Source: Thiohalophilus sp.
Lineage (GTDB): Bacteria; Pseudomonadota; Gammaproteobacteria; UBA6429; Thiohalophilaceae
Direction: 5' to 3'
Assembly: GCA_050116795.1 (NCBI GenBank)
Contig: JASFNY010000001.1
Coordinates: 1-35,979 of the forward strand
DNA: 35,979 bases
The notes beneath the pieces were generated by a model. That model saw only the letters and a program-made list of their open reading frames with translations. It was not told the origin of the DNA and searched no databases. The translations under genes and the position numbers were made by a program. Shown one piece after another: positions 1-24,496 of the stretch; position 1 is the stretch's first letter, and each line of letters opens with the position of its first letter.

Positions 1-666
1 CTCGATTCCCGTCTGAAACTTCGCACTGAGCAGCGGGAACGGTTAAATGAACGTGTTGACCGGATGTTGATCGCGCGCAACCCGGATTTTCTGGCAACTA
101 TCAACGAAAGAATATATCTGCATAAAATCAAGGCAATTGAAAAGCAGTTGAAAAGGCACGGTGGCAATTCCTCGGATCAAAGCTGGGAGCGGGTGCAAAG
201 GCTGAAAGGTGTAGTTCTGTGGCCGATCTACACCAACTATGACAAGCGTCTGACAAAGGCCTACAAGAACCTCCGTGAACTGGACGGTTATATCGAGCAA
301 TTGGACAGCCAATACAATTCATTTGTTCGTACCTTTCATGGGGCCCGGCAAAGTTATGAAGGCTACGAAATGCCGTTGCGCCTGACCAGGTCTCGAATTC
401 AACAAGCGATCGAGCGGCTTGATATGGTCAAAGCCAGGCAGGGACGCATCCTGGAATTGCTGGCAATAAACGAGCTGGACAGGAGACGAAAACGACTTGA
501 GGAGTATCAGGTTAAAGCCCGATTTGCGATGGCAGAGAGCTATGACAAGGCGACCAAGGCTGCTCAGGGACAGCCGGGCAGTACTTCGAATAAAACTACG
601 CCAGAACAATCGCAACCGGCCCGTTCCGGTGACGATGCTAATGCAGGGGAAGCCGGGGAACAATGA
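1..666 (+). CDS. C-terminal part of a helical/coiled-coil, probably TPR-type envelope protein (GltC-like by position); 5'-truncated by the window edge
   Basis: Frame is open from base 1 (LDSRLKLRTEQRERLNERVDRML...), so the ORF-track start at 64 is not the true start. Amphipathic helical sequence ending ...YQVKARFAMAESYDKA plus a low-complexity tail. Stop overlaps the next ATG (ATGA, 663-666). Confidence 0.7.
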   Translation, partial: LDSRLKLRTEQRERLNERVDRMLIARNPDFLATINERIYLHKIKAIEKQLKRHGGNSSDQSWERVQRLKGVVLWPIYTNYDKRLTKAYKNLRELDGYIEQLDSQYNSFVRTFHGARQSYEGYEMPLRLTRSRIQQAIERLDMVKARQGRILELLAINELDRRRKRLEEYQVKARFAMAESYDKATKAAQGQPGSTSNKTTPEQSQPARSGDDANAGEAGEQ

Positions 667-3600
667 AACTGAGACTCGCCTACATTGTATCCATTCCGCT
701 GCTGTCGGCTTCCTGTGCAGGTTATAACGACGGCAAGACGTTGGCCAGCCTGCGTGATGTAAACATAGAAATCAAGGAAACCCGGGTTGATGGCAGTCTG
801 GACAAGGCTATGCAAAGTTACCAGCGATTTTTGCAGGAAACCCCTGAATCCGCACTGACCCCTGAAGCAATCCGTCGCCTCGCCGATCTGAAGGTCGAGA
901 AAGAGTATGGAGTGGTCGATCAACCGGAAGTAGTAGAGAAAACAGAGGAAAAACCGGCCAAGTCGTTATCACCACCTGCCAGTGTCGCTCTCAACGAGGG
1001 TGATAAATCACAGAAACAGGTTGTGGATCCGTCACAAATCAAAAACAGGGAGTCTATTGCCGCGTTCGAACAACGGGCTACACAGACAAAAAATCTGGAG
1101 AAAAAAAGCAAGCCACAGAAAGTTCAGTTACCCAAGGGAGAACCGGGTAATGATTTGCAAACGGTCGGGGCTCTTGAAGCCATCGCGCTATACAAGAAGT
1201 TGCTGAAGAAATATCCGCTGTATGAGCGGAACGATCAGGTCCTTTACCAGTTGTCGCGTGCCTACGAGGAGACAGGACAGGTCGAGAAAGCCATGCAGGT
1301 CATGAACCAGATTGTCAGTAAATATCCAGATTCACGACATATCGATGAGGTTCAATTCCGACGTGCAGAATACTATTTTACCCGCAAGAAATATCTGTCT
1401 GCCGAAGAGGCCTATCAATCTGTATTGAACGTTGGTGTCGGTTCAGCTTTCTATGAACTGGCAGTATACAAGCAGGGTTGGGCATTCTTCAAACAGGAAT
1501 TGTATGAACGGGCACTGAATAATTACATCAGGCTTCTTGATTATAAAGTAGCCAATGGTTATGACTTCGATCAGACTGAAAACAAGACTGAAAAGAAGCA
1601 TATTGACGATACCTTCAGGGTAATCAGCATCAGTTTCTCGTACCTGGGTGGAGCGCCTGCGGTAGTTGATTATTTCAAAAAAGCAGGTCCTCGCTCCTAT
1701 GAAGTCAACGTATATAGCAACCTTGGCGAGTATTATCTGGATAAGCGTCGCTACAGTGATGCGGCATCAGCTTATGAGAAGTTTGTTGAGCTGAATCCTT
1801 TTCACAAGAATGCCCCGCATTTTCAGACCCGGGTCATAGAGATTTACAAAAAAGGTGGTTTTCCCAAGCTGGTTGTGGAAGCCAAGAAAACATTCGCACA
1901 GAAATACGGCCTGAAAGCAGCATACTGGACCTATTTCGATATCAACAAATATCAGAAGGTTGTTGATGCCCTGAAGACCAATCTGGTTGATCTGGCCAAT
2001 CACTATCATGCGCTCTACCAGGACCGTCGCTTCGCAAGTAGCAAATCCCTAAACTTCGCGGAGGCGGCAAACTGGTACCAGGAATACCTCAAGTCATTTC
2101 CGAGTGACAACAAGGCGCCGGAAATTAATTATTTGTTGGCCGATCTATATAGACAAAATAAGGACTATCGCAATGCGGCAGTCGAATACGAACGTACTGC
2201 CTACGATTATCCCAAACATAAAAAATCATCTGCAGCAGGCTATGCCGCTGTTTATGCGTATCGTGAATATCTCAAAGTTGTTTCTCCTTCACAGAAACAG
2301 GCAGTCATGCGGGAAACTATTCGTAGTTCATTAAGGTTTTCCGATACCTATCCGGAGCATAAAAAAGCGGCTGTCATCATGACAGCTGCTACGGAAGACT
2401 TGTATGAAATGAAAGACTATCAGCTGGCGATTAAAACCGCCGAGAAATTACTCAAGGTGTTTCCTTCAGCAGACGAGAAATTGCGCTATTCAGCCCAGTT
2501 GGTCGTGGCACATGGCTCCTTTGACTTGATGCGTTTCCAGGAGGCAGAAACCGCTTATCTGAAGGTGCTTAAATACAAAATACCTGACGCCAAAAGCCGC
2601 AATGAAATCACTGAAAATCTAGCGGCATCTATTTACAAGCAGGGTGAAGCGGACAGCAAACTTGGTAAATACGAAGAGGCGGCAAACCACTTTTTACGTA
2701 TCGCAAAACTGGTACCGAACGCAAAAATACGTCCTACCGCTGAGTATGACGCCGCTGCAATATTGATTCGCATAGAACAGTGGCCGAAGGCAGCCAAAGT
2801 CCTTGAGGATTTCCGACGCAATTATCCAAAGCACAAACTGGGTCCGGAAGTCACAAAGAAACTGGCTGTGGTGTACAAGGAAGATGGTAAATATCTGAAG
2901 GCGGCAACTGAGTTCGAACGTATAGAGAAAAACGAGAAAGACCCTGAGTTACGACGTGAAGCGCTATTTCAGGCTGCAGAGCTTTATGAGCTGGCAAAAA
3001 ATACAGACAGGTCGCTGGCTATTTATGAGCGCTATGTGAAGTTATTCCCCCGACCGCTGGAATATGCGCTCGAAACACGACAGAAAATCGCCGAAATATA
3101 CAAGCAGCGCAAGCAGAATGTGAAATATGTCAAAGAACTGAAAAAAATAGTGCGAGCCGATGCTAATGCTGGCAGGGAGCGAACCGATAGAACCAAGTAC
3201 CTTGCATCCGGTGCCGCGCTGGAATTGACCAGGCCGGTCATGGACAGCTATTTGAGTGTAAAGCTGGTCAAGCCATTCAAAAAGAATCTGAATATAAAGA
3301 AACAACGTATGAAAAAGGCTATTGAAGCCTATACCAGGCTTGTCGATTATGGTGTTGGTGAAACAACAGCGGCAGCAACTTTCCACATCGCCGAGATCTA
3401 TTACCACTTCAACAAGGCGCTAATAAACTCGGAAAGGCCTGATAACCTCAGCCCGCTGGAAAAGGAACAATATGAACTTGCAATCGAAGAGCAGGCCTAT
3501 CCATTTGAAGAAAAGACCATCACCATACATAAGAAGAACCTCGAATTGCTCTCAAGAGGTATTTTTAATCGCTGGATAGACCAGAGTCTGGACAAACTGG

Positions 3601-3791
3601 CCAGTCTATTGCCAGCCAGGTTTGGGAAGCCGGAGGCCAGTCTTGGTTATGTGACGCAGATCCGTCCTTATCAAATTACTGAGGGCCTTGACAGTGTGTC
3701 CACCAGTAATCTGGCGAACTCGGTGTCAGATAAGCAAGGCCAAGTGTCAGGCGAAAGAAAGCAGACACTTATGCAAGCCATGGCTGATTAG
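663..3791 (+). CDS. Large tetratricopeptide-repeat protein, probable lipoprotein (GltD/AgmU-like)
   Basis: 1042 aa with many TPR-like helical pairs (e.g. DQVLYQLSRAYEETGQVEKA, EVQFRRAEYYF, PEINYLLADLY). Signal peptide ends in Cys (LLSASC, atypical lipobox). C-terminal segment YELAIEEQAYPFEEKTITIHKKN and gene context fit gammaproteobacterial GltD-like proteins. Confidence 0.8.
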   Translation: MKLRLAYIVSIPLLSASCAGYNDGKTLASLRDVNIEIKETRVDGSLDKAMQSYQRFLQETPESALTPEAIRRLADLKVEKEYGVVDQPEVVEKTEEKPAKSLSPPASVALNEGDKSQKQVVDPSQIKNRESIAAFEQRATQTKNLEKKSKPQKVQLPKGEPGNDLQTVGALEAIALYKKLLKKYPLYERNDQVLYQLSRAYEETGQVEKAMQVMNQIVSKYPDSRHIDEVQFRRAEYYFTRKKYLSAEEAYQSVLNVGVGSAFYELAVYKQGWAFFKQELYERALNNYIRLLDYKVANGYDFDQTENKTEKKHIDDTFRVISISFSYLGGAPAVVDYFKKAGPRSYEVNVYSNLGEYYLDKRRYSDAASAYEKFVELNPFHKNAPHFQTRVIEIYKKGGFPKLVVEAKKTFAQKYGLKAAYWTYFDINKYQKVVDALKTNLVDLANHYHALYQDRRFASSKSLNFAEAANWYQEYLKSFPSDNKAPEINYLLADLYRQNKDYRNAAVEYERTAYDYPKHKKSSAAGYAAVYAYREYLKVVSPSQKQAVMRETIRSSLRFSDTYPEHKKAAVIMTAATEDLYEMKDYQLAIKTAEKLLKVFPSADEKLRYSAQLVVAHGSFDLMRFQEAETAYLKVLKYKIPDAKSRNEITENLAASIYKQGEADSKLGKYEEAANHFLRIAKLVPNAKIRPTAEYDAAAILIRIEQWPKAAKVLEDFRRNYPKHKLGPEVTKKLAVVYKEDGKYLKAATEFERIEKNEKDPELRREALFQAAELYELAKNTDRSLAIYERYVKLFPRPLEYALETRQKIAEIYKQRKQNVKYVKELKKIVRADANAGRERTDRTKYLASGAALELTRPVMDSYLSVKLVKPFKKNLNIKKQRMKKAIEAYTRLVDYGVGETTAAATFHIAEIYYHFNKALINSERPDNLSPLEKEQYELAIEEQAYPFEEKTITIHKKNLELLSRGIFNRWIDQSLDKLASLLPARFGKPEASLGYVTQIRPYQITEGLDSVSTSNLANSVSDKQGQVSGERKQTLMQAMAD

Positions 3792-3801
3792 GCAAGACGA
3801 T

Positions 3802-4449
3802 ATGGATCAATATTATTATCTCAAGCCAGAACCCGGGATTAGAGGCAAATACGCGTATCTGTGTCGCCTGCTGATCATTGCTCTGCTCTCCATCATGCTT
3901 GGCGCTTGCGCAACAACCGCAAAACACGCCGGAGATAGCGGTTCCATCCTGGTGGGTGCAAGGGATGATATCGCAATAGACCCTGGTGTGGCCCGCGACT
4001 TCAATACTGCATTGTCACTTCTTAAAAAGGAGAAGTACGAGCAAGCCATAGAATTACTGGAATCAATTGTCAAAAGAGAGAACCGGGTAACAGCACCATA
4101 CGTCAATCTCGGGATAGCATATATGAGAGTAGGTGAGATGGGCAAGGCAGAAAACAATCTCAAAAAAGCCGTTGAGCTCGATCCTGGACATCCAATTGCA
4201 AATAATGAACTTGGTCTTTTGTACCGCCGAACAGGGCGGTTCTCTCAGGCGAGAAATGTTTATGAAAGAACTTTGAAAAAATATCCGGACTTTCTCCCTG
4301 TGCGGAAAAATCTGGCAATCCTTTGTGATATTTATCTCGACGACCTGGATTGCGCGCTTAACAATTTCGAAAAGCTTGCAGAAGCACTTCCCGAGGACCA
4401 GCAATTAAAAATATGGATCGCGGAAGTGAAAAATCGTAAAGGCCGGTGA
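3802..4449 (+). CDS. TPR lipoprotein (GltE/AglT-like)
   Basis: Likely start is ATG 3802, just after the upstream stop, not 3688. Hydrophobic stretch and lipobox LGAC. TPR motifs PYVNLGIAY...A, ANNELGLLYR...A and KNLAILCDIYL. Confidence 0.8.
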   Translation: MDQYYYLKPEPGIRGKYAYLCRLLIIALLSIMLGACATTAKHAGDSGSILVGARDDIAIDPGVARDFNTALSLLKKEKYEQAIELLESIVKRENRVTAPYVNLGIAYMRVGEMGKAENNLKKAVELDPGHPIANNELGLLYRRTGRFSQARNVYERTLKKYPDFLPVRKNLAILCDIYLDDLDCALNNFEKLAEALPEDQQLKIWIAEVKNRKGR

Positions 4450-4461
4450 GGAGATGATGAG

Positions 4462-4737
4462 ATGAAATATTTTTACTTTTTGCTCATGTTGTCGGTATTT
4501 GCTGTTAATCCTGCATTTGCAGAAGATAGTGAACAGGCAAAGACCCTCTCAGGTATCTCGATTGTCGGCAACAAGGAAGCCCCGAAGGCGCTGTATATCG
4601 TGCCCTGGAAAAGTTCTGAAATAGGTATTGAAACAAGCCTGACATCAGGATTGATGGATGAGAGTCTGCGACCGGTCGACAAAGAAGTTTTTCAGCGTCA
4701 ACTGGATTTTTATAATGCTGTATTGGACAAGCCTTGA
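4462..4737 (+). CDS. Small exported protein (GltF-like)
   Basis: RBS GAGGAG upstream; Sec signal ending AFA|ED. Motif GISIVGNKEAPKALYIVPWK. Lies between the TPR lipoprotein and the TolQ-like gene. Confidence 0.7.
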   Translation: MKYFYFLLMLSVFAVNPAFAEDSEQAKTLSGISIVGNKEAPKALYIVPWKSSEIGIETSLTSGLMDESLRPVDKEVFQRQLDFYNAVLDKP

Positions 4738-4778
4738 TTTAAAGGTTGCATATAAATTCTTGTGAAGAGGAAATAGCG

Positions 4779-5426: not shown

Positions 5427-5435
5427 CGCTGAACA

Positions 5436-5957
5436 ATGCCAAGAAAACATCACTACAGGCGACGTGAAGGCGGCCCTCCGGAGCTGGATGTCACTACCTT
5501 TCTGAATTTGATGGTGGTGCTGGTCCCGTTTCTGCTGATCACCGCAGTATTCTCTCGTATCACTATCCATGAGCTGAGTATGCCGGCATCAGCCGGAGCA
5601 GATCAGGCCAACAAGCCCAAAGTCACGATCGAAGTTATCGTGCGTAAAAACGCACTCGAAGTCGGGGATGGTCGAAGAACCATCGCTCGTTTCAGAAACA
5701 AGGAAGACAATAAATATGATCTGAAAAAACTTTCCGATTATCTTCTTAAAGTCAAGGGCTCTTATCCCGACAAGACTGATGCAGTGATCCTGATGGAGCC
5801 GGATATTGAATATGACTATCTCGTACAAGTTATGGATGCAGTACGCGTGCGAGAGAAAAAACCCAAGGGCGAGATAGTTGAGGAGAATCAAGACAGAGAG
5901 ACTGAGTCTGAAAAAATTGTCCTGTTCCCTGATATATCCATCGGAGATGCGCCATGA
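5436..5957 (+). CDS. ExbD/TolR-family protein (AglQ/AglS-like), with Asn at the usual TM Asp position
   Basis: Basic N-terminus, single TM (ELDVTTFLNLMVVLVPFLLITA), periplasmic motif EPDIEYDYLVQVMDAVR, C-terminal LFPDISIG. Confidence 0.85.
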   Translation: MPRKHHYRRREGGPPELDVTTFLNLMVVLVPFLLITAVFSRITIHELSMPASAGADQANKPKVTIEVIVRKNALEVGDGRRTIARFRNKEDNKYDLKKLSDYLLKVKGSYPDKTDAVILMEPDIEYDYLVQVMDAVRVREKKPKGEIVEENQDRETESEKIVLFPDISIGDAP

Positions 5958-6451
5958 AGCCTTCGCGACGCATAAACCGCATGGCCCGACGCCGTAAAAG
6001 AAGTATGCCGGGTCTTAATCTGGTCTCCCTGATGGATGTGTTCACGATATTGGTTTTTTTCCTGCTTGTTAATTCATCGACAAGTGAAGTGCTCGATACA
6101 CCGAAAGAAATAACTTTGCCCGATTCAATCGTTGAGTCAAAACCCAGGGAGTCAGTTGTTGTGCTTGTTTCAACTGAGGCCATTCTCGTCCAGGGTGAAC
6201 CCGTTGTTACACTCCAGGATGCGCTAAATGATAAATCATCAGTCATCAGTCCGCTAAAAGCTAGTTTGCAGCGAAATAAAGGGAAAAAGATCGGAATAAA
6301 AACAGGTGAAGATTCAAAAGGAGATGAAGTCACAATTCTTGCTCATAAGACGGTTCCCTTTAAGTTATTAAAAAAGGTGATGTCTAGTTGTACCAGCGCA
6401 GGCTATTCAACGATATCCCTTGCCGTAATCCAGAAAGCATCAAACAGTTAG
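5954..6451 (+). CDS. ExbD/TolR-family protein (AglQ/AglS-like)
   Basis: ATGA overlap with the previous gene. TM LNLVSLMDVFTILVFFLL carries the canonical Asp28. Also ITLPDS and AHKTVPFKLLKKVMSSC..AGY. Confidence 0.9.
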   Translation: MKPSRRINRMARRRKRSMPGLNLVSLMDVFTILVFFLLVNSSTSEVLDTPKEITLPDSIVESKPRESVVVLVSTEAILVQGEPVVTLQDALNDKSSVISPLKASLQRNKGKKIGIKTGEDSKGDEVTILAHKTVPFKLLKKVMSSCTSAGYSTISLAVIQKASNS

Positions 6452-6460
6452 TGGTTTTTC

Positions 6461-7810: not shown

Positions 7811-7869
7811 AATCTGGCCTGGGTATTATTTTATTTGTCTAAAAATAAAAAATAAAAAAAAGGAAAAAT

Positions 7870-7950
7870 AATATGAAACATATTGGTTTGCTGCATCAGG
7901 ATTCTCCTGATGTCTAAGGTCTGCGCGTCACTAAGTCGTCAGGCTTTATA
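7870..7950 (+). promoter_or_regulatory. Putative structured leader of the giant adhesin gene (uORF plus alternative hairpins)
   Basis: Perfect inverted repeats AATATG-aaa-CATATT (7870-7884) and CATCAGGA-ttc-TCCTGATG (7894-7912). CCTGATG can alternatively pair with CGTCAGG (7937-7943). A 14-aa uORF at 7873-7917 has an AAGGA RBS. Confidence 0.4.
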
Positions 7951-7983
7951 TATGTATGTGTTTTAACCCAGGAATAGAACTGG

Positions 7984-16900: not shown

Positions 16901-19161
16901 ACGTCCAGCAATTGTCGATTACCAAGGATGTTAACGTCGTCGGTGGCGGAGCCGCATTGCCTGGTGGTGAGCTGGAATACGTAATACGGGTTACCAACAT
17001 CAGCGGCGTCGCGGCCACCGATGTGACGATCACCGATAACCTGGATTTGCCGGTAGCTAATCAGCTTAACTATGTAGCCGGTTCGGCGATCATGAACGGT
17101 TCGACGGCGGGGATCAGTTTCTCCGATCCGGTGCTCACAGCCGACTATTCGACTCCTTATGGCGATCTGCAGCCGGGTGACACGGTGGTATTACGCTTCC
17201 GTGCCCAGATCGATTCGGCCCTGGCCATCGGTACCACAATTACCAATACCGCCGATGTCAGCTGGGATGCGGGTACCCGGAACGACTCGGCCAGTGTCTC
17301 GGTCGATGTCGGTGGCACACCGGGCGTTGCCAGTCTGAACGGTAATGTCTGGCACGATGCCGATTTTGATCTCACTGCCGACAGTGGTGAACGGTTACTG
17401 GCGAACTGGACGGTAAACCTGTATCGCAACAGCGTGCTGTATGCCTCGACCCAGACAGACAGCAGCGGTCAGTTCCAGTTCAATGGTGTTGCACCAAATG
17501 ATCTCAGTGGCGATAACTACGAACTGCGTTTTACTGCTCCCGGGAGCGGAGCGAATACCGCCTCACTGGGTGAAACCGATTCGCCGTTTACCGATGGCCA
17601 GCAGTCGATTACCAATATCGTGGTCACCTCGGGCAGCAACACTCAGAACCTGAATCTACCCATACAACCCAATGGTGTGGTTTACGATGCGGTGCTGCGT
17701 ACACCGGTGGCCGGAGCCACGCTGGTCATGCTGCGTGCCTCGGACAATCTGCAACTGCCGGACAGCTGCTTTGATGATACGGCACAGCAGGGACAGGTCA
17801 GTACCGCGAATGGTTACTACAAGTTTGCCCTTAACTTTACTCAACCGGAATGTAATGCCGGCGACGACTATCTCATTCAGATTACACCGCCAGCCAGCGG
17901 TTATACCGCCGCACCTTCTGTACTGGTTCCACCGACGACCAGCGCGGCCACAGCGGCATTTGATGTGCCGTCCTGTCCGGGAACTGCCAGTGATGCGATA
18001 ACCGCCACTACCAACCATTGTGAAGCACAAATCTCTGAGCTGCCGCCGGCGACATCCATTGCGGCAGGACCGGGTACTCGCTATCACCTGAACCTGACCC
18101 TGAATGACACGCTGGTGCCGGGTCACAGCGAAATGTTCAACAATCATATACCACTGGATCCGGAACTGGGTTCAGCCGTCTCACTGTCAAAAGTTGCTGC
18201 CAAGGTCAATGTGACCCGTAGTGATCTGGTGCCCTACACCATCAGGTTGAATAACACGCTGAGTGCACCACTGGCAGCGTTGGATGTAATCGATACCTTC
18301 CCGGCCGGTTTCAAATACGTGAAAAATTCCGCGCGGGTCAATGATACCCCGATGGAACCGGCTATCAACGGACAACAGCTAACCTGGTCCGACATGGTTG
18401 TTGCACCGAATTCCAGCCTAACGATCAAATTACTGTTGATCGTCGGTTCCGGGGTCAACGAAGGGGAATACATTAACCGGGCACGGGTGCTGAACAATAT
18501 CACCGGTGATTATGTCTCCGGGGAAGCCAGTGCCACGGTACGTGTGGTACCTGATCCCACCTTCGATTGTTCAGACATCATCGGCAAGGTCTTTGATGAT
18601 CAGAACCTGAATGGTTACCAGGACGAGGGCGAGCCTGGCTTACCTGGTGCACGTGTCTATACCGCCCGTGGCCTGGAAATTACCGCCGATGAATACGGCC
18701 GGTTCCATGTCACCTGTGCCATCACGCCGAATCAGGATCGCGGTTCCAACTTCATCATGAAACTGGACGAGCGCAGTCTCCCGACCGGTTATCGCGTCAC
18801 CACCGAAAACCCACGAGTGCAGCGCGTTACTCGAGGCAAGATCGTCAAATTCAATTTCGGTGCCACGATTCATCGGGTGGTCAAGCTGGACATGGCCGAT
18901 GCGGTCTTCGAACCCGGTTCAGCCAAAATGCGTCCGCAATGGATACCGCGGCTGGATCTGCTGGTTGGGCAACTCAGGAAAGCGGCATCAGTCCTGCGTT
19001 TGTCCTATCTGGCCGAGAATGAAGATGATGGCCTGGTCGAAGATCGACTCGATGCCGTCAAACAGATGGTCGAGGAACGCTGGGAGGAACCCTACAAGTT
19101 ACGTATTGAGACCGAAGTGTTCTGGCGCGGCGGCGGACCGGATGAGCGGGGTGATCTGTGA
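7984..19161 (+). CDS. Giant exported repeat protein, putative fibrillar adhesin (DUF11/isopeptide-type Ig-like repeats, SdrD B-like domains, degenerate OmpA-like C-terminus)
   Basis: 3725-aa uninterrupted ORF (start TTG 7984 or ATG 7990) with Sec signal ending ASA|EAC. About 16 repeats of pattern K...GDxxxYxIxxxNxG...A...DxLP...N[TQ]A. SdrD B-like starts NGNVWHDADFD and IGKVFDDQNLNGYQDEGE. D/T/N/G-rich and acidic. Confidence 0.85.
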   Translation: MSMYRIGKNVQAPRALVYLVLSVLGLLFSIETASAEACPNPNDISINHQPQSYCELCGVGEVTLRVEYGRNFNPEITNLAITEDFQASGLEPIPGTTTFNTRFGAAPLSTDPTQTAPGEWTWDLGGFWLDPAGNNSGNRQYLDITFQVRRSNSQDEEGLYFDSKSVQATLAYTTDTDTCSDETDSHTLDMNAPNPNITKLGRNVDASQGGYTNPVYGHNNDDIIWRIQISNSGLADMQDLMFTDLMQDGNFEINYACPSEGEALSIANANGAGPVGGCIAAGNSTLSDWEVTNPFGDAGTTNYPNGGSVNGFSRNLNGWEVDVAAGGSTFIYLVGKVTADGSCTSGGRTNTANQLEFGCEVDANGVGGIPNASSSSAVLRTYVGDVNAQLTINRQLTGINPGQPVGSRGYVTLTITNNTGGTVKDIYLDDVLPPEYVVDPTYWSSGLTKTLPVRGTPVVGESSIDPLYGSYDGMIDRLTWENPQGSLSSPSQDPLQNTGPQFRLWSSTSYSDNGETYEHLLRHGDEITVTFPIVLISQDRSVVEPYDLAANLDVTPEVTGDGTDPAYTSSLSNSLTIDYNTLCNTQGAQQLTFNENFAAFPEDLDVAINGTTFILTNDPNQQLTLPVTLTNNGGHEARNYHLYVTFGTTMDVVSAPAGCSVVNSPNSTPSSPDEWQPIPRQVWVKDQVTPIAIPSTATVYECTSPTVISPNQSVNYNFNVIKTSDAGRIAVDDLTFRADVIGEILLDDGTPLWFPTPVTRADGLTDPSNNYSLDAVWARVIGFNLKKSQVGECSENPPASFDGSGFEQVEIGEECTYLIETGGWFGFETPGYAYIAVQNIDVVDEIPDGQAYISNTDPYAASTSLIGINNDLSRNPADLTAPDERWFDWRFNTADANRIEIADEWFIVNTTTRLLNKPVDTRAVPNVHSADSFNVLNSTFDATFSNLNTGAVETYTLGPSTVGYPNEPIRRVDLRITEPNLLVDKQVCNETLYGSGTGCSNFVDLADDGDTQDSYIYRITLTNQASSAGYTRAPAYDIVSSDVLDSSDMVYVVPFASDGLDNDGDGLIDGADSDGEGGISDNVVENGTPPVITYSHTHSSALLKLEPGSSVTFYYRVDPDDSVAPLQTLTNTVSATYDSLAGDSGNQTVAPGATGTLGGARFYTSADASAAVQILPLQTQPKTILQLSNTPLGGTPQSVSIGEEVEYELRAFIPVANLRNFVIRDELPAGIRCSEAPVVNLDAAPYSAAGFSPGGQITPTCTGNLVEWNFGDQELTAAPSTSLFEFPVTFIARVENIAANIDGQVISNGDPATVARLSYVNDAGSTVTLNFGQVDLEVREPEISLIKSFAVANSDAGDVLTVTVRAINGGTASAYNLQVMDDLVGTNLTYLGNLSGTDPPDVVDTTTLGPDQPIFKWNPTNPDYQIPVGGVRTFTFDVRVDTAAQPHEILNNTAQASWTSLPLQTTALNSSGTIGADGSADGMRNGVLPNNPLDTLNDYETEASAQTEVLPLTMNKTDLDPGLVPAVGARKHFQIEISLPEGTTQNLVATDNLNFGALSYVLENNASYDVSYTFQDIASINGQSPSEGALTAFPADGATGNISWDIGTVVTSTEDDLTVNTVNPVIRVDYYARINNDAATNAGDGLQNQATVNYSNGETAVTETLIDTTPAVSVVEPLLNINKTVVNVSNPGNPPIAGDILRYSLNITASSGASYSDALDVSINDDLSLGLAYSGNSTVNGAGNTINDPVTSGDGITTAQSMRWSLADANADIDVSEGSTVTVTYDVVVLDNVLPGQQLTNSASIQWTSLDGADAAERDGTASPAYNDYFTGPVTAILNAPDLNTISKARLTDTFGSGDANVRIGDIVDYELRLTLQEGTSGNVLVSDSLPQGLAFEGLVSINGDSSAPFTSVSPFTHTAINNATVSGDPAIGPTTVTIDIGDIVNAGDGNPANNDFIIVYRARVLDNVFAQVNSTTLTNAVTFQYDNISGTQTRSSSQAITLLQPNLSVSKSASAAGGDTVIEANELVTYTVDISNSGTAPAYDLMLQDIIPVGMRNGTATITMVSTTIGGTPVANPVPIYDATTGIVNWNLDTGVADSYTIPAGQTLSLVYQVQADPDIGAGLTLTNQAQGLSYYSFDDEAAPTAGSVSGVREIYGPTNTASTTLTTDAPGAPLKENPASTDVTIGETFSYRITIPASPHPTALHDVRILDNLPAGSGDADLGFVSVSKVSGSLSWTPVNTGTATSLVIEDTTDGIDIPAGEQIVIDVAVIVNDSSDNVAGVLFNNTASYTYNQLDDTPATQQPGGSSTTADMRIVEPQLVMQKSGPGQMQLGVPETFTLDLQNTGNSTAWDITVTDLLPNPSPGGMCDTPPANITAQVFEADGSTAVSGVLVEGTDYVSSFTGDPTCSLTLTMQTADAAVAPTQRLIITYEAELDLDNPQAQPLTNIAGATEWFSLDTAGAGATGQIRTYSRALTDGSLLHEDAHTVTSELPELSIQKTVDNVTSSQSPASTAQPGDTLSYTVTITNISDVPVTDFTLRDELDRLNTTQSKFAAGTLNIITLPSGTDVSDSNGGTNGTGLLEIQNLNLDAQGGANDSLTFVYEVTLAPVLTNGSQVLNQAQVIILDSLTLDSDDPNIGGAEDPTAVTINSAPAFEVWKTSQDLTDDPATLEAGDRLRYTITVKNTGTEDAVNVTLRDQIPGNTSYDPGSTTLNGSPVGDPSNGVSALESGMLINAPENTTAGYLRADSSATTSNVSTITFDVIVDTNAVDGTVISNQGFVNGQGQGSGSFPEQPSDDPSTALVDDPTIDVVGSVPLVDSQKIVSIVIDNDGDGIVDPGDRLQYTIITTNFGALPATGVVLTDAIPADTTYVPNSTTLNTLAVPDPAAGVSALESGLDISSSDLTPPLPTAGNGTLSPGQAATVTFEVDVTGGVLISNQGTVSNNELPDEPTDQDGIDSNGDQPTIIGVGNVQQLSITKDVNVVGGGAALPGGELEYVIRVTNISGVAATDVTITDNLDLPVANQLNYVAGSAIMNGSTAGISFSDPVLTADYSTPYGDLQPGDTVVLRFRAQIDSALAIGTTITNTADVSWDAGTRNDSASVSVDVGGTPGVASLNGNVWHDADFDLTADSGERLLANWTVNLYRNSVLYASTQTDSSGQFQFNGVAPNDLSGDNYELRFTAPGSGANTASLGETDSPFTDGQQSITNIVVTSGSNTQNLNLPIQPNGVVYDAVLRTPVAGATLVMLRASDNLQLPDSCFDDTAQQGQVSTANGYYKFALNFTQPECNAGDDYLIQITPPASGYTAAPSVLVPPTTSAATAAFDVPSCPGTASDAITATTNHCEAQISELPPATSIAAGPGTRYHLNLTLNDTLVPGHSEMFNNHIPLDPELGSAVSLSKVAAKVNVTRSDLVPYTIRLNNTLSAPLAALDVIDTFPAGFKYVKNSARVNDTPMEPAINGQQLTWSDMVVAPNSSLTIKLLLIVGSGVNEGEYINRARVLNNITGDYVSGEASATVRVVPDPTFDCSDIIGKVFDDQNLNGYQDEGEPGLPGARVYTARGLEITADEYGRFHVTCAITPNQDRGSNFIMKLDERSLPTGYRVTTENPRVQRVTRGKIVKFNFGATIHRVVKLDMADAVFEPGSAKMRPQWIPRLDLLVGQLRKAASVLRLSYLAENEDDGLVEDRLDAVKQMVEERWEEPYKLRIETEVFWRGGGPDERGDL
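16162..16676 (+). repeat. 20-bp exact direct repeat marking a tandem domain duplication in the adhesin gene
   Basis: GTGTCGGCACTGGAAAGCGG at 16162-16181 and 16657-16676 (495 nt apart, 165 aa). Both copies encode STTLN...V.DP..GVSALESG. Confidence 0.8.
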
Positions 19162-22100
19162 TGATTGCTCATCTGCTCATGCTCAAATATGCCACCTATA
19201 CGGGCAACTTGAGGCGACAGCTTGGCCTGACGCTGTTGCTGTGCCTTTTATCTCTGCCGTTGTTCGCAGCGGAAGAACCGGCTGGAGAAGATAGTACGCA
19301 AGACGCTACCGTGACCGAAGTAACAAAGGATGTGATCGGCGAGAATACCGAACAGCACCTGCCGCCGGATGAGGTGTTTATTCCCTGGGTGCAGGATGAT
19401 AGTCAGTACAAGCAGGAAGAAGAGGACCAGGTCGAGATCGAGAAGAGTCTGGAGAAGGTCTACACCACCAAAAAACTGAAAAACGTGGTGCCACCGATCC
19501 GCTTCCAGTCCGGCGTTGCGGAAATACCGGAACGGTTTGTGGTGTTGTTACGCGAAGTACTCGAAAAAATGAAAGATCGTACCAATGTACGACTGCATTT
19601 TATCGGCCATACTGACAACGTACCTCTCAGCGGCAGTGTCGCCGAGCAATATGGCGACAACTTCGGGCTGTCCCGTGCACGGGCCGAGATGGCCGCGCTG
19701 TTCTTCCAGCGCGAGTTAAACCTGCCCCCCGAAGCCATCTCCTATGATGGTGCCGGTGCAACCCGGCCGATAGCCAGTAATGACACCGCTGCCGGCAAGG
19801 CACGCAATCGCCGGGTTGAGGTACAGGTCTGGTATGACGAGGTGAGTGAGAAGGTCGTCGAAAAAGAGATCGAGAAAACCCCGGACAACAAGCGGGTCAA
19901 GATCTGCCGCATGGAGACGGTGTGCAAGATTAGTTACAAGCAGGGATACAGTAAACGAATACGCCTGAAGAACCTGGTACCGCCATTACGCCTGCAGCAA
20001 GGTCAGATCGAATTACCGGAGCGATTTATCGGCGATCTGCGTGAGACCCTGAATAACCTGCGGGACAAGAAGAATGTCATGATCCGGTTTATCGGGCATA
20101 CCGATAACCTGCCGTTGGCCGATCGCGCAGCACGGATCTACGGGGACCATATGGCGCTGTCCAAGGCCAATGCCCGTCGTGTCGCCCTGGTGGTTCAGGA
20201 AAAACTGGGGCTACCCAACCGGGCGGTAAGCAGTGACGGTAAAGGCAGCTCGGTACCGATTGCCAGTAATGATTCGATTAACGGTCGGGCACTGAATCGC
20301 CGAATCGAGGTCGAGTTCTGGTACGACGATCCGCTGGAAGTCATGAATGACGAGATCCAGTCCTGTCCGGACTCCGCCGCCGCTGAAACCGTCACCCGGA
20401 TATATCAGCCGCCTACCGGCCCGATCGAACCGATCTATTTCAAAGACGGAGATCCGCAGATACCGCTCGGTTATACATCGCGACTGCAGCGCCTGATGGA
20501 GCAGATCGAGGAAAAATCCAACGTCAGATTACGGTTCATCGGTTACACCAGTAATGAACGCCTGGAACGGCGTACCGCGATGTTATACGGCGATGACATC
20601 GGCCTGTCCACGGCGCGTGCTCGCAGGGTCAAGGATGAGATCAAGAAAGAACTCTCCCTGAGCGAGAAACAGGTCGAGTTCGAGGGACGCGGCTATGTGC
20701 AGACTGACGAGGTCATTGCGCGCCAGTTTGCAGACGATGACGAATCGAGGGTGGTCGTCCAGATTGTCTATGATGCTCTGGCCATGCTGGATGAAGACGA
20801 GGGAATGGATATCACCCGGATTACCCGCGAGATCGAGCCCAGCAACCCGTATGCCCTGAACCTGATGCGGATTACCGTCGATGGCGAGCCCCTGCATGAT
20901 CCGAATCGCAGCAGTGCTGACATTCAGCGTTGCACCGATGTGGCATTGGAGAAAACCGATATTGAATTCCGCTTCGATAATCTCAAGCTGAAACCGCGAT
21001 TGAATGTCACTGCCTGGCCACGCACCATCAGTTATCTCAACGATCCTGCCACCAGCCTGGAAGACAACCGGACACATTTCCGCGCCTATACCAACTACGC
21101 TGCTTTCATCGACAAAATGGAAGTCCGCCTGTTTAACAAGGGGCAGTCAACACGTGATACCCCGCTCGAAGTGATCGAGCTGAACAAGGATGGCTATGCC
21201 GAATGGCAGCCGCGTCTGGTCGAATTCAATGCGCCCGTGATGGAACTGCAGTATGTCTTGCGCGTCTATGATGCCGAAGGCCGGTTTGATGAGACCGAAC
21301 CCCAGCAGCTGTGGATCGTCGATCAACTGGAAGATGCCGATCAGATGCTGAATATCGATCAGGAATTACTGGTCGGGTATGGGGAAAATCATCTGGCATT
21401 GCAGAACATCCCATTGGAAGGTGGCACGGTGCGGGTCAACGGTGAAAATGTGCCTGCCGATCATACGGTATGGCTGGCCGGTCGTCCGGTGCCGGTCAGT
21501 GACGACAAGGAGTTCGTCAGTGAAGAGATCCTGCCGTCGGGCCTGCATAGCGTGGAAGTGGCAGTAGTCGATCAACAGGGTAACGGGGAACTGTTCCTGC
21601 GCGATCTGGAAATGGACAACGATGACTGGTTCTATGTCGGCATGGCCGATGTCGTGGTCAGCAAGGACAACACCAACGGCCCGGCCAAACTGGTGACCGG
21701 CGATACCACGCACTATGACAATGACCTGACTGTAGACGGGCAACTGGCGTTTTTCGTCAACGGCAAGTTCGGGGACAACTGGCAGTTGACCACCAGTGCC
21801 GATACCCGTGAGGGACCGTTGAACGAAATCTTCAGCAACTTCACCGAGAAGTCGCCCGATTCTATTTTCCGCAGACTGGATCCCGATTACTACTATCCGA
21901 CCTTTGGCGATGACAGCAGCGTTGAGGAACTGGCACCGACCCTGGGCAAATTCTACGTCAAGCTGAAGAAGGACGAGGATTACGGTCTGTGGGGCAATTT
22001 CGATATCAATTACCTGGACACTGATCTGGCCCAGGTTGACCGGACCCTGTATGGCGGCAACCTGCACCTGGAAGATGATGAAACCACCAGCTTTGGTGAG

Positions 22101-24308
22101 AAACGTTATTTGCTGGATGGCTTTGCCGCCGATCCGGGTTCAGTGGCAGCGCGGGATGAGTTGCGCGGTACCGGCGGTTCCCTGTATTTCCTCAAGCATC
22201 AGGATATTCTCATCGGATCCGACAAGCTGCGGATCGAGGTGAGAGACAAGGATTCCGGCATTGTTATCGGTGTGAAGGAGCTGGTTCCGGGGATCGATTA
22301 TGACATCGATTATATCCAGGGCCGGGTTGTGTTAAGCAACGCTCTGTCCTCCACCTCGGATGACAACCTGCTGGTAGAGGATGTTGCGGGCAGTGGACAC
22401 CCGGCCTATCTGGTGGCCCGTTACGAATACACTCCGGGCTTCGAGAAACTGGACCAGGTGGCCACCGGCGGACGTATCCATTACTGGTTCGGTGATCATG
22501 TCAAACTCGGCCTGACCAACAGTAACCAGGGTGAACCCGGCAGCGAAAGCAAAGTGAACGGGGTAGACCTGACCCTGCGTAAAAACAGTGGGACCTGGTT
22601 GAAGATGGAAATGGCCTCAAGCGAAGGGGCGGGTACCGGACTACAGAGTTCCCTGGATGGCGGCTTCAGTTACGATCCACTGGATCTTTCCACCGGTGAA
22701 ACTGTTTCGGCCGATGCCAGCCGCGTGGAAGCCGGTATCAAACTGGATGATCTGTTCGATGGCGCCAACGGCACCGCCACCCTTTATACCCAGCACCGTG
22801 ACGCCGGATTCTCGGCACCGGGGCAGCTGACCAATACCGATGTTGACCAGGTCGGTGGTTCATTAAGTATGCCGATCAACGAATCCCTGCAGCTGGATAT
22901 CAAGGCAGACAGGAAAGACCAGAAACAGGATCTGCAGACTTCGGCCCTGGATGTCAGTGTCGGTTATCAATTGAATGACAACTGGCAACTCACTACCGGC
23001 GGCCGACATGATTCACGCAAGGATGAGTCGCCCGTGGTTCCGACCACCCAGACAGAAGGTCAGCGGACCGATATTGCTTTCAAGGCGGAATACAACTCCA
23101 GGGAGGACTGGACGGCCTATGGCTTTACCCAGTTTACCGCCAATACCACCGAAAGCCGGGAACAGAATGATCGGGTCGGAATAGGCGGCAGTTACCGTGC
23201 TACCAATCGCTTTACCGTGGATGGTGAGATTTCCGAGGGGGATACCGGGACCGGCGCCAGGGTTGGCTCGCAATATCTGTTATCCGATCGCAGCAATATA
23301 TATCTCAATTATGCCCTGGAGAACGAACGCACCGACAATGGAATACGTTCACGCAAGGGTAATCTGACTTCCGGTTTCCGTACCCGGTATTCCGATTCGG
23401 CCAGCGTCTATGCGGAAGAGCGTTATACCCATGGCGATGAGCCGGTCGGCCTGACACACTCGCTGGGCATGGACCTGGCGCCCAGCGATCGCTGGAACTT
23501 TGGGGTCAATCTGGATGCCGGTTCGCTGGAAGATCGCAATGCCGGCACCACGATTGATCGTACCGCCCTTGGCTTTACCGTCGGTTACGGTTTCGAAAGC
23601 ATGAAATATGCCGGCGCCGCCGAGTACCGGATTGATGAAACCGGCTACCCGGATGATACTGTCAGTGAACGGACCACCTGGCTGGTGAAAAACAGCCTCA
23701 AATATCAAATCAACCCGGACTGGCGCCTGATCGCCAAGTACAATCATTCCGATAGTCAAAGTTCGCAGAGCGAATTTTATGACGGCAAGTTCACCGAGGC
23801 GGTTCTGGGATACGGCTACAGACCGACCACCAATGATCGCTGGAACACGCTGTTCAAATATACCTATTTCTACAATGTACCGGCGGCGGATCAGGTTACT
23901 CTGACCAACACCGCTGCGGAATATATACAGAAGAGCCATATTCTGTCGGTCGATACCACCTATGATCTGACTAAACGCTGGAGTATCGGTGCCAAGTACG
24001 CGCACCGCCTGGGGCAAATCAGCCAGGATCGTGAGAATCCCGAATTCTTCGACAGCGAGGCCAGGCTGTATATCCTGCGTGCCGACTGGCACTTCGTTAA
24101 CCGCTGGGATTTACTGATGGAGGCCCGAATGCTTGATCTTCCCGATGCACAGGATCGTCGTAGCGGGGCACTGGTCGGCGTCTACCGGCATATTGGCGAT
24201 AATTTCAAATTTGGTGTGGGATATAACTATACCGATTTCTCCGATGACCTCACCGATCTCGATTATGATAGCCAGGGCGTCTTCATCAATCTGATTGGAA
24301 AAATGTAG
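19158..24308 (+). CDS. Multi-OmpA-domain outer-membrane protein with a large C-terminal beta-barrel region
   Basis: GTG/ATG start overlaps the adhesin stop; signal peptide ends LFA|AEE. OmpA_C motifs GHTD..LSRARA..RPIASN..RNRRVEV and GHTD..LSKANA..LNRRIEV, plus a degenerate third (GYTS..LSTARA). From ~21620 on, alternating aromatic/Gly beta-strands end in GVFINLIGKM. Confidence 0.85.
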   Translation: MMIAHLLMLKYATYTGNLRRQLGLTLLLCLLSLPLFAAEEPAGEDSTQDATVTEVTKDVIGENTEQHLPPDEVFIPWVQDDSQYKQEEEDQVEIEKSLEKVYTTKKLKNVVPPIRFQSGVAEIPERFVVLLREVLEKMKDRTNVRLHFIGHTDNVPLSGSVAEQYGDNFGLSRARAEMAALFFQRELNLPPEAISYDGAGATRPIASNDTAAGKARNRRVEVQVWYDEVSEKVVEKEIEKTPDNKRVKICRMETVCKISYKQGYSKRIRLKNLVPPLRLQQGQIELPERFIGDLRETLNNLRDKKNVMIRFIGHTDNLPLADRAARIYGDHMALSKANARRVALVVQEKLGLPNRAVSSDGKGSSVPIASNDSINGRALNRRIEVEFWYDDPLEVMNDEIQSCPDSAAAETVTRIYQPPTGPIEPIYFKDGDPQIPLGYTSRLQRLMEQIEEKSNVRLRFIGYTSNERLERRTAMLYGDDIGLSTARARRVKDEIKKELSLSEKQVEFEGRGYVQTDEVIARQFADDDESRVVVQIVYDALAMLDEDEGMDITRITREIEPSNPYALNLMRITVDGEPLHDPNRSSADIQRCTDVALEKTDIEFRFDNLKLKPRLNVTAWPRTISYLNDPATSLEDNRTHFRAYTNYAAFIDKMEVRLFNKGQSTRDTPLEVIELNKDGYAEWQPRLVEFNAPVMELQYVLRVYDAEGRFDETEPQQLWIVDQLEDADQMLNIDQELLVGYGENHLALQNIPLEGGTVRVNGENVPADHTVWLAGRPVPVSDDKEFVSEEILPSGLHSVEVAVVDQQGNGELFLRDLEMDNDDWFYVGMADVVVSKDNTNGPAKLVTGDTTHYDNDLTVDGQLAFFVNGKFGDNWQLTTSADTREGPLNEIFSNFTEKSPDSIFRRLDPDYYYPTFGDDSSVEELAPTLGKFYVKLKKDEDYGLWGNFDINYLDTDLAQVDRTLYGGNLHLEDDETTSFGEKRYLLDGFAADPGSVAARDELRGTGGSLYFLKHQDILIGSDKLRIEVRDKDSGIVIGVKELVPGIDYDIDYIQGRVVLSNALSSTSDDNLLVEDVAGSGHPAYLVARYEYTPGFEKLDQVATGGRIHYWFGDHVKLGLTNSNQGEPGSESKVNGVDLTLRKNSGTWLKMEMASSEGAGTGLQSSLDGGFSYDPLDLSTGETVSADASRVEAGIKLDDLFDGANGTATLYTQHRDAGFSAPGQLTNTDVDQVGGSLSMPINESLQLDIKADRKDQKQDLQTSALDVSVGYQLNDNWQLTTGGRHDSRKDESPVVPTTQTEGQRTDIAFKAEYNSREDWTAYGFTQFTANTTESREQNDRVGIGGSYRATNRFTVDGEISEGDTGTGARVGSQYLLSDRSNIYLNYALENERTDNGIRSRKGNLTSGFRTRYSDSASVYAEERYTHGDEPVGLTHSLGMDLAPSDRWNFGVNLDAGSLEDRNAGTTIDRTALGFTVGYGFESMKYAGAAEYRIDETGYPDDTVSERTTWLVKNSLKYQINPDWRLIAKYNHSDSQSSQSEFYDGKFTEAVLGYGYRPTTNDRWNTLFKYTYFYNVPAADQVTLTNTAAEYIQKSHILSVDTTYDLTKRWSIGAKYAHRLGQISQDRENPEFFDSEARLYILRADWHFVNRWDLLMEARMLDLPDAQDRRSGALVGVYRHIGDNFKFGVGYNYTDFSDDLTDLDYDSQGVFINLIGKM

Positions 24309-24466: not shown

Positions 24467-24496
24467 GTCCGCACAGGATTTTGCGGGTCTTTTTTT
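24467..24496 (+). terminator. Probable Rho-independent terminator after the adhesin/barrel operon
   Basis: Stem CCGCA (24469-24473) / TGCGG (24482-24486), extendable by G-U pairs, followed by a T7 tract (24490-24496). Confidence 0.55.

What the first reader, a model, noticed from the sequence alone, without database searches (positions are those of the whole stretch)
1..24308. Glt/Agl-like motor cluster next to a giant adhesin and a dedicated OM barrel: candidate undescribed surface-translocation, display or gliding system
Seen: ten co-directional, closely packed genes: helical protein, large TPR, TPR lipoprotein, small exported protein, TolQ-like, two ExbD-like and TonB-like. They are followed 173 bp later by a 3725-aa repeat protein and a 1716-aa OmpA/barrel protein, with no convincing terminator until ~24470. 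Established: GltD-G plus AglRQS form the core of the Myxococcus gliding machine, and a related machine moves spore-coat polymer; Flavobacterium gliding propels a giant adhesin (SprB). To my knowledge, gammaproteobacterial copies of the core have no known cargo. Inference: the giant protein may be the cargo of this ion-driven machine, exported or held by the barrel and energised through the TonB-like subunit.
Basis: partly seen in the sequence, partly recalled or inferred. Interest (0 to 1): 0.85.

Follow-up and report, generated by a model that had tools for sequence, protein, structure and literature searches.

The report
Gliding-type motor coupled to giant adhesin
A proton-driven envelope motor of long-unknown purpose, the ancestral core of the Myxococcus gliding machine, is inherited here as one block with a giant, likely adhesive fibre protein and a predicted 40-strand outer-membrane pore, and the motor likely pulls on or repositions that fibre after the pore has exported it.

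Summary
The genes are there as described, and the linkage is real. The window holds the Agl-Glt 'core complex' (gltC, cut by the contig end; gltD, gltE, a small exported gene, aglR, two ExbD-like genes, gltG), then a 3725-aa Ig-repeat fibre and a 1716-aa protein with three OmpA-like domains and a predicted 40-strand barrel. Only one clade of the core is linked. It lies on the barrel's contig in 36 of 50 barrel genomes, in three gene orders, and the same 14 of 121 Cellvibrionaceae genomes carry both. Core and barrel trees share 15 of 18 splits, and four congeners lack the whole block at an empty tRNA-Leu–nuoA site. Natural fibre-barrel fusions make the fibre the barrel's likely passenger. Against 'export needs the motor': 20 of 46 barrel-family genomes show no core. 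The motor most likely acts on the exported, tethered fibre; physical contact is untested. Gliding is unlikely, and the barrel matches SprA only in one weak 80-residue segment. The core (2011) and an unnamed 40-strand barrel family (2021) are in print; I found no paper on the linkage. This scan reported the same system earlier on other genomes.

The parts
1..666 (+). GltC-like periplasmic TPR/helical protein, C-terminal 221 aa; 5' part and the upstream 'extra' core gene lie on adjoining contig C5
   Evidence: frame open from base 1; 68% to the end of a 647-aa TPR protein in G003; C5 end carries aa 1-444 and overlaps the window by 31 nt; position matches Gura_3077 = MXAN_2541
663..3791 (+). GltD-like large TPR protein, 1042 aa, predicted lipoprotein (Cys18); marker of the linked clade
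   Evidence: TPR families; 47-72% to linked copies, at most 45% to other copies
3802..4449 (+). GltE-like TPR lipoprotein, 215 aa from the likely ATG (longest ORF starts at 3688)
   Evidence: gliding_GltE E 3.3e-12, 46 bits, below the cut-off of 225; lipobox-like LGAC
4462..4737 (+). small exported core protein, 91 aa (likely the GltF-like bridge; inferred from position)
   Evidence: no family at E 0.01; found at this position in all 32 linked loci scored
4779..5426 (+). AglR (TolQ/ExbB/MotA family), three membrane helices
   Evidence: PF01618 E 1.3e-25; hydropathy
5436..5957 (+). ExbD-like subunit 1 (AglQ by gene order); Asn at the membrane position where ExbD has its proton-binding Asp
   Evidence: PF02472; Asn in 47 of 48 loci; the role of the position is recalled
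5954..6451 (+). ExbD-like subunit 2 (AglS by gene order); keeps the membrane Asp
   Evidence: PF02472; Asp in 48 of 48 loci
6461..7810 (+). GltG-like transducer: about 169-aa cytoplasmic helical domain typical of the linked clade, one membrane helix (170-188), linker, AgmX/PglI (TonB-like) C-terminal domain
   Evidence: NF033768 56.4 bits over cut-off 40; 167-199 residues before the helix in 30 of 30 linked loci, 21-50 in 15 of 16 others
7811..7983 (.). 173-nt AT-rich spacer with a 9-bp inverted repeat; possible internal promoter
   Evidence: sequence; no terminator or Rfam match; length and sequence not conserved
7984..19161 (+). giant fibre, 3725 aa: signal peptide, stacked Ig-like domains (DUF11, isopeptide type, SdrD_B), acidic
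   Evidence: model of aa 36-985 is all-beta, best match PrgB Ig-like domains
18871..19128 (+). conserved degenerate OmpA-like C-terminal domain of the fibre; predicted periplasmic tether
   Evidence: conserved in the 46 fibre ends printed; a paralogue's end matches PF00691 at E 2.9e-14; runs straight into the barrel N-terminus in fusions
19158..24308 (+). outer-membrane protein, 1716 aa: signal peptide, three OmpA-like units (aa 105-552), two beta-sandwich domains (about 600-822), giant barrel
   Evidence: PF00691, three stretches; three units by profile; model
21624..24305 (+). predicted single beta-barrel of about 40 strands (aa 823-1716)
   Evidence: AlphaFold2 pLDDT 73.5, pTM 0.63; strand list; closed barrels align from model residue 220-223 to 1116
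22263..22535 (+). small inserted domain in the barrel with weak likeness to SprA model positions 610-689
   Evidence: TIGR04189 E 0.075 here, 0.0013-0.038 in three relatives, far below cut-off
24467..24488 (+). terminator-like hairpin closing the block before the nuoA promoter region

Best explanation
The block encodes a fibre-display unit and a motor: the predicted 40-strand barrel likely exports the giant Ig-repeat fibre and holds it by a periplasmic, likely cell-wall-binding chain of OmpA-like domains, and the Agl-Glt core likely uses the proton gradient to pull on or reposition that tethered fibre after export. Steps: (1) shown: genes, domains, linkage, co-inheritance, natural fibre-barrel fusions; (2) predicted: barrel fold and size; (3) inferred: the fibre's stalk passes through the pore while its conserved OmpA-like end stays in the periplasm next to the barrel's OmpA units; (4) inferred from the Myxococcus model: force runs AglR/ExbD pair to GltG to GltD/E to GltC to the outer-membrane partner, and the giant barrel is the only such partner in the locus; (5) inferred: since motor-free relatives display equally large fibres, the motor adds a post-export action (tensioning, retraction, release or moving the anchor on the wall) used in surface attachment.
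For: Fibre directly upstream of the barrel in 65 of 76 loci; the other 11 begin inside the barrel gene. Linked core on the barrel's contig in 36 of 50 genomes (30 upstream, 2 divergent, 4 downstream); the other 14 have at most 20.1 kb of contig upstream. Same 14 of 121 genomes of the G054 family carry both, all on one contig. In 400 class genomes 8 of 8 linked cores come with a top-scoring barrel, 7 on one contig. Empty site in 4 of 4 congeners examined. 31 linked cores form one clade with one unlinked copy, support 1.0; 27 linked barrels form one clade with one barrel of unknown context, nested among motor-free barrels; 15 of 18 splits shared over 21 genomes. Fusions without the inner signal peptide. 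Linked barrels have three OmpA units, unlinked 0-1; linked GltG has a long cytoplasmic domain. Both studied Agl systems move cargo after export, not during it (PMC3858216, passages). Three c-di-GMP-I riboswitches precede the fibre gene in G079.
Against: No physical contact between motor and barrel or fibre was tested. G453 and G459 have close barrels but no linked-clade core was found, and one copy in the linked clade (L100) sits among cytochrome genes without a barrel. Invariant Asp/Arg in the first OmpA unit (45 of 45) suggests a firmly anchored barrel, which is hard to move sideways. Tree congruence is partly expected from common descent, and one supported conflict exists. No riboswitch in the window or in 31 other loci scanned. 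Threading of the stalk was not modelled.
Confidence: 0.45

Rival explanations
1. Energised export: in this clade the motor drives threading or extraction of the fibre through the barrel, as the GldLM chain extracts substrates from SprA in type IX secretion.
For: Same linkage data as above. In T9SS, loading needs no energy but extraction does, and a TPR lipoprotein (SprE) is needed for release (PMC10994853, passages). SprA gives the longest structural alignment among the listed rows (535 residues, Z 12.1, rmsd 11.5), and a short segment resembles SprA.
Against: 20 of 46 barrel-family genomes have no core match (7 of them rechecked with all candidates scored). Their fibres reach 2166-4711 aa, no smaller than linked ones. 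SprA's Z is tied with ordinary porins.
Confidence: 0.25
2. Envelope upkeep or gating: the motor acts on the barrel itself (opens a plug for uptake, TonB-like, or manages its wall anchors, Tol-Pal-like), and the fibre is a passive passenger or capture arm.
For: GltG ends in a TonB-like domain (E 0.008). Other core clades sit beside ApbE/LamG/DUF3570 or SH3-barrel genes, so the core serves varied outer-membrane partners. Linked barrels gained OmpA units.
Against: No TonB-receptor plug family matched. A pore occupied by its own passenger (fusions) suits display better than uptake.
Confidence: 0.13
3. Co-regulated passengers: the two modules travel together on an island and serve the same lifestyle but do not touch.
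For: Both modules occur apart in the wider families. The block sits at a tRNA-Leu site. Motor genes are 43-51% GC, fibre and barrel 55-56%.
Against: Linkage survives three gene orders and spans gamma-, beta- and deltaproteobacterial records and an Acidobacteriota record. Both partners carry clade-specific additions. The locus offers the core no other outer-membrane barrel.
Confidence: 0.1
4. True gliding: the motor propels the fibre along the cell as Flavobacterium propels SprB.
For: Motor ancestry; a long cytoplasmic domain on GltG could link to a cytoplasmic track.
Against: No GltA/B/H-type barrel over cut-off in 5 genomes; AgmX/PglI domains over cut-off equal the number of cores, so no separate GltJ; MglB-like genes in 2 of 5; no FHA domain. 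Luciano et al. judge that the core alone is unlikely to drive motility (PMC3169522, passages). Wall anchors on the barrel.
Confidence: 0.07

Closest known systems
Agl-Glt 'core complex' of non-gliding bacteria (Luciano et al. 2011, PMC3169522; passages and supplement passages seen)
   Same: Same gene set and order: gltC, gltD, gltE, small gene, aglR, two ExbD-like genes, gltG, plus an extra gene. Their Geobacter copy has a 484-aa GltG and 1108-aa GltD, the long forms seen in the linked clade (inference from length).
   Different: The paper calls the function unknown; the word 'adhesin' does not occur in its main text. Here one clade is tied to a fibre and a giant barrel.
Myxococcus Agl-Glt gliding and Agl-Nfs spore-coat machines (PMC11761067, PMC3858216; passages seen)
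   Same: Motor, GltG transducer and TPR shaft; an adhesin at the outer end.
   Different: No GltA/B/H/K-CglB module, no GltJ, no FHA domain found; the outer-membrane partner would be one giant barrel with wall-binding domains; the cargo is a 3700-aa fibre, not a lipoprotein or a glycan.
Type IX secretion and Flavobacterium gliding (SprA, GldLM, SprE, SprB; PMC10994853, passages seen)
   Same: Giant barrel (36 strands there), proton motor, TPR lipoprotein, giant adhesin: the closest working analogy.
   Different: Different motor family; no T9SS C-terminal signal family matched the fibre; one dedicated passenger, often fused; only an 80-residue weak match to SprA.
Large-barrel families 002 (40 strands, 1,194 homologues) and 003 (38 strands) of Solan et al. 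2021 (PMC8346858; passages and supplement passages seen)
   Same: A predicted single 40-strand barrel in a superfamily of large barrels; probably this family.
   Different: The text held gives no sequence, partner or function, so identity could not be checked; parts of the supplement are pictures.
Type V secretion (autotransporters, two-partner systems)
   Same: N-terminal passenger with a C-terminal barrel, fused or split into two adjacent genes.
   Different: About 40 strands instead of 12 or 16 (recalled), no POTRA or autotransporter family match, periplasmic OmpA chain between passenger and barrel.

Membership tests
Agl-Glt core complex (Group B genes) | aglR plus two ExbD-like genes, gltG, gltC, gltD, gltE and one extra gene in one cluster | tested here: met
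   order matches Gura_3070-3077
Agl-Glt core complex (Group B genes) | GltG with membrane helix and AgmX/PglI C-terminal domain | tested here: met
   NF033768 over cut-off; helix 170-188
Agl-Glt core complex (Group B genes) | branches with the published core sequences in a tree | not tested
   the tree holds no Myxococcus or published core sequence
Myxococcus gliding machine | GltE and GltG orthologues over the curated cut-offs | tested here: not met
   46 of 225 and 35 of 650 bits
Myxococcus gliding machine | GltA/B/H-type small barrels | tested here: not met
   TIGR04565 over cut-off in 0 of 5 linked genomes; own genome only 77% complete; none upstream
Myxococcus gliding machine | GltJ and an FHA domain on GltG | tested here: not met
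Myxococcus gliding machine | cells glide | not testable with these tools
   needs microscopy
T9SS translocon SprA/Sov | full-length sequence homology (TIGR04189, cut-off 200 bits) | tested here: not met
   best 15.8 bits over about 80 of 2319 positions in 5 genomes; no SprA chain found by sequence or profile
T9SS translocon SprA/Sov | same fold | tested here: inconclusive
   6h3i Z 12.1-12.2, rmsd 9.4-11.5, 341-535 aligned, tied with porins
T9SS translocon SprA/Sov | GldLM motor, PorV and other T9SS genes | not tested
   only SprA was searched genome-wide; the locus motor is of the TolQ/ExbD type
Type V secretion | 12-strand autotransporter barrel or Omp85/POTRA barrel | tested here: not met
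   no such Pfam or NCBIfam match on the barrel part; about 40 predicted strands
TonB-dependent transporter | 22-strand barrel with N-terminal plug | tested here: not met
   no plug or receptor family match; strand count
Large-barrel family 002 (Solan 2021) | single 40-strand barrel | tested here: met
   predicted only
Large-barrel family 002 (Solan 2021) | sequence membership in cluster 002 | not testable with these tools
   no member sequence in the passages returned

The most novel reading that the evidence does not exclude
An undescribed adhesin secretion-and-display pathway built on the largest single-chain barrel known, which once recruited the Agl-Glt core to become a motorised fibre: the motor ratchets a four-domain wall-binding chain to extend, tension, retract or walk the fibre. 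This would be the first protein cargo for the core outside Myxococcales and a second, independent pairing of proton motor, giant barrel and giant adhesin beside type IX secretion.
Probability: 0.35. Interest if true: 0.93.

Novelty: new variant of a known kind. Interest (0 to 1): 0.8.

Why it matters
The job of the Agl-Glt core in non-gliding bacteria has been an open question since 2011 (PMC3169522). This finding names a candidate cargo and outer-membrane partner for one clade, present in cultured Microbulbifer and Pseudomaricurvus species (record titles), so the question becomes testable with deletions and a point mutant. It also gives a likely job to an orphan 40-strand barrel family and points to an undescribed route for displaying very large adhesins (family size: 3542 representatives at E up to 1e-10). 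Motor-free relatives supply the natural control.

Tried and rejected
Complex prediction (extra protein + GltC N-part against the barrel's N-terminal OmpA region) was not available, so no contact was modelled. A model of the fused fibre-barrel junction was dropped because the alignment stacked fibre ends onto barrel starts. SprA homology: rejected at sequence level. Foldseek gave only generic barrels, TM at most 0.20 of the query. Atlas search of the barrel part returned only unnamed or automatically named clusters; the GltG cytoplasmic domain matched only its own kind. A FleQ-like box (recalled consensus) in the spacer scores 9 of 12 and is not conserved over 26 loci. Riboswitches: none at gathering score in the window or 31 further loci; found only in L104 (L088 and L095 do not reach the fibre's 5' end). 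Transcription: two wetland RNA libraries (X1, X2; contigs only; word share 0.11 and 0.07) hold pieces at 99% or better over gltD, gltE, aglR, both ExbD genes and the fibre, and at 97% or better over the barrel and nuo genes; no listed piece bridges 7810-7984 and no silent control was laid, so neither expression nor co-transcription is shown. 'Motor needed because the fibre is large': rejected, motor-free fibres are as large. A broken nuoL was suspected and rejected: the frame is open to the contig end. Literature searches that found no description of the linkage: (open-licence PMC and bioRxiv only; subscription papers are not searched). PMC12204202 has no mention of GltG, PglI, AgmX or DUF11 (passages). 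PMC8238504 describes ApbE-DUF3570 clusters without the word MotA (passages). PMC10629564 was seen only in the search listing.
Full report
Observation. The window is the whole of contig C1 of a 77% complete, 328-contig genome. Its closest named relative is titled an uncultured Thiohalophilus (L022, barrel 79% identical). The first ORF is open at base 1. Contig C5 ends with its 5' part and one more gene and overlaps the window by 31 nt. Upstream lie tpiA, secG and tRNA-Leu, and no small barrel gene.

The motor cluster. Families: TPR (663-3791, 3802-4449), MotA_ExbB, ExbD twice, and a C-terminal AgmX/PglI domain over its cut-off on the TonB-like gene; the Myxococcus GltE and GltG models match but far below cut-off. 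Gene set and order equal the 'core complex' of Luciano et al. 2011, whose function they call unknown (passages; supplement passages). The second ExbD keeps the membrane Asp in 48 of 48 loci and the first has Asn in 47 of 48, which fits an intact motor with one proton site per pair (the role of this Asp is recalled).

Fibre and barrel. The 3725-aa protein has a signal peptide, DUF11, isopeptide-type and SdrD_B repeats. A model of residues 36-985 is an all-beta stack (pLDDT 75.7), nearest to the Ig-like domains of the adhesin PrgB at low overall TM (0.21). Its last 90 residues are a conserved degenerate OmpA-like domain. The 1716-aa protein has three OmpA-like units; the wall-binding Asp and Arg (positions recalled) are invariant in unit 1 (45 of 45), partly kept in unit 2 (Asp 45, Arg 30) and unit 3 (Asp 8, Arg 45). 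A model of residues 601-1716 (69 sequences, pLDDT 73.5, pTM 0.63) shows two beta-sandwiches and then 46 strand elements; leaving out five of an inserted domain and one short loop strand gives 40 (my assignment from the secondary-structure list, without coordinates). Solved closed barrels align from the first to the last strand. No solved structure matched by sequence at E below 0.001. SprA is not a full-length relative: its model hits only about 80 residues of the inserted domain, E 0.0013-0.075, in 4 of 5 genomes. SprA is 36-stranded (PMC10994853; bioRxiv 10.64898/2026.03.07.710327, passages). A 40-strand family was predicted in 2021 without partner or function in the passages seen (PMC8346858); it is probably this family, but that could not be checked.

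Fibre and barrel belong together. The fibre lies directly upstream in 65 of 76 barrel loci, and the other 11 loci start inside the barrel gene. Three of these loci encode both in one frame; in G078 the 5192-aa fusion lacks the barrel's signal peptide at the junction. 17 of the 150 best representatives are 3000 aa or longer with the barrel at the C-terminus.

The motor belongs with them in one clade. Of 76 loci I tested the 50 genomes with the longest contigs. All 50 have a GltD match of 48% identity or more (two are short edge fragments). It is on the barrel's contig in 36: 30 upstream, 2 divergent, 4 downstream; the other 14 have at most 20.1 kb upstream, and two of these still show gltG before the fibre. 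In 121 genomes of the family of G054 (the centre, chosen for having the barrel), 97 have a core; the 14 with GltD at 50-55% are exactly the 14 with a barrel at 57-63%, always on one contig; of the other 83, one has a 34% barrel paralogue. In 400 class genomes the 8 linked-clade cores all come with a top-scoring barrel, 7 on the same contig; 2 further top-scoring barrels (G453, G459) have only other-clade cores, and both contigs break beside the barrel or inside the fibre (one search scored two candidates per genome). In the genus 3 of 9 genomes have both parts and 6 have neither; 4 of 4 examined among the six have tRNA-Leu and nuoA 375-540 nt apart, the site that holds the whole block in G000 and G003.

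Trees. 31 linked cores and one unlinked copy (L100, among cytochrome genes) form one clade, support 1.0, among 47 loci. 27 linked barrels and G459 form one clade, support 1.0, nested among motor-free barrels under midpoint rooting, among 44. Over 21 genomes core and barrel trees share 15 of 18 splits (shuffles: mean 0.3, at most 3 in 1000), with one supported conflict. Shuffles do not correct for kinship; but both trees place the three deltaproteobacterial loci among beta- and gammaproteobacterial ones and both split the G054 family, which common descent alone does not give. Two additions mark the linked clade: 167-199 residues before the GltG membrane helix (30 of 30 loci, two from one genome; 21-50 in 15 of 16 others) and three OmpA units on the barrel (4 of 4 linked and G453; 0-1 in 10 of 10 others; profile built from this window's units).

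Evidence against a simple 'motor exports the fibre'. 20 of 46 barrel-family genomes in the class sample have no core match; seven were rechecked in full and stayed empty, including a single-contig, 100% complete genome. Their barrels sit beside fibres of 1232-4711 aa with no motor genes in the stretches read. Other core clades have other neighbours: ApbE, LamG and DUF3570 genes, SH3-barrel genes, or T2SS genes. So the core is a general arm that pairs with different outer-membrane partners, and the fibre-barrel unit is older than its motor (inference, which rests on midpoint rooting).

Mechanism. In the AlphaFold model of the Myxococcus machine, GltG binds GltD, and GltC meets the outer-membrane barrels (PMC11761067, passages). 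This locus offers one barrel only. Both studied Agl systems move cargo after export (PMC3858216, passages). I therefore favour: barrel exports and tethers the fibre (inferred from fusions), and the motor works on the tethered fibre (inferred, 0.45). Energised extraction as in T9SS is the main rival (0.25), then gating or envelope upkeep (0.13), independence (0.10) and gliding (0.07). Functional coupling of some kind is thus about 0.9. One transcript is not required: gaps of 38-662 nt and two divergent loci. Three tandem c-di-GMP-I riboswitches precede the fibre in G079 only, a hint of an attachment lifestyle that does not extend to this genome. No contact was modelled or measured.

Novelty. 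The core and a 40-strand barrel family are in print. Nine searches of the open-licence library found no paper on their linkage or on the fibre as cargo; subscription papers and picture-only supplements could bear on this. Earlier reports of this scan describe the same system on at least eight other windows; they are not independent support. Verdict: a real, undescribed variant of the Agl-Glt class; interest 0.8.

Noticed in passing
L119:8477-13305, L123:8331-13446, L125:8318-13151, L129:6974-11827, L135:8168-13036: Five T6SS clusters carry GltC-, GltD- and GltE-like TPR genes (and a small gene) right after clpV, with no TolQ/ExbD/GltG genes beside them in the stretches read. The TPR shaft may have been borrowed by a T6SS subtype.
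   Followed up: partly
L102, L121, L122, L126, L127, L128, L137: The commonest other core clade in these loci follows apbE, a LamG protein and two unnamed exported proteins; L124 has LamG, SH3-barrel and DUF3570 genes; L118, L133, L134 have T2SS gspJ-N and apbE before the core.
   Followed up: partly
L100:2742-17462: A second core copy in G050 with the long GltG branches inside the linked clade but sits after c-type cytochrome and beta-propeller genes, with no fibre or barrel in the 20 kb read.
   Followed up: partly
L104:13345-13860: Three near-identical c-di-GMP-I riboswitches in tandem, 218 nt apart, upstream of the fibre gene of G079.
   Followed up: partly
L202 (G000 contig C209): The window's genome has a second, distant barrel-family gene (26-34% identity, one OmpA-like stretch, fused upstream domain) on a 4.4-kb contig.
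   Followed up: partly
L117 (G066), G076 contigs C9 and C16: G066 has two fibre genes in tandem before one barrel; G076 has two copies of both barrel and core.
   Followed up: no
G322:C2 near 460780 (L198): An open frame of 11,777 codons ends in a barrel of this family.
   Followed up: no
L099 and L170, spacer before the fibre gene: Three imperfect direct repeats containing GATACGCAAA lie just upstream of the fibre start in two related genomes (sequence); possibly an operator array.
   Followed up: no
window 663-7810 against 7984-24308: Motor genes are AT-richer (GC 43-51%, GC3 0.42-0.55) than fibre and barrel (55-56%, GC3 0.63-0.65) and the genome (54%).
   Followed up: no
L201:2551-4608: A 685-aa gene lies between ftsH and folP in the window's genome and is absent there in G003.
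   Followed up: no
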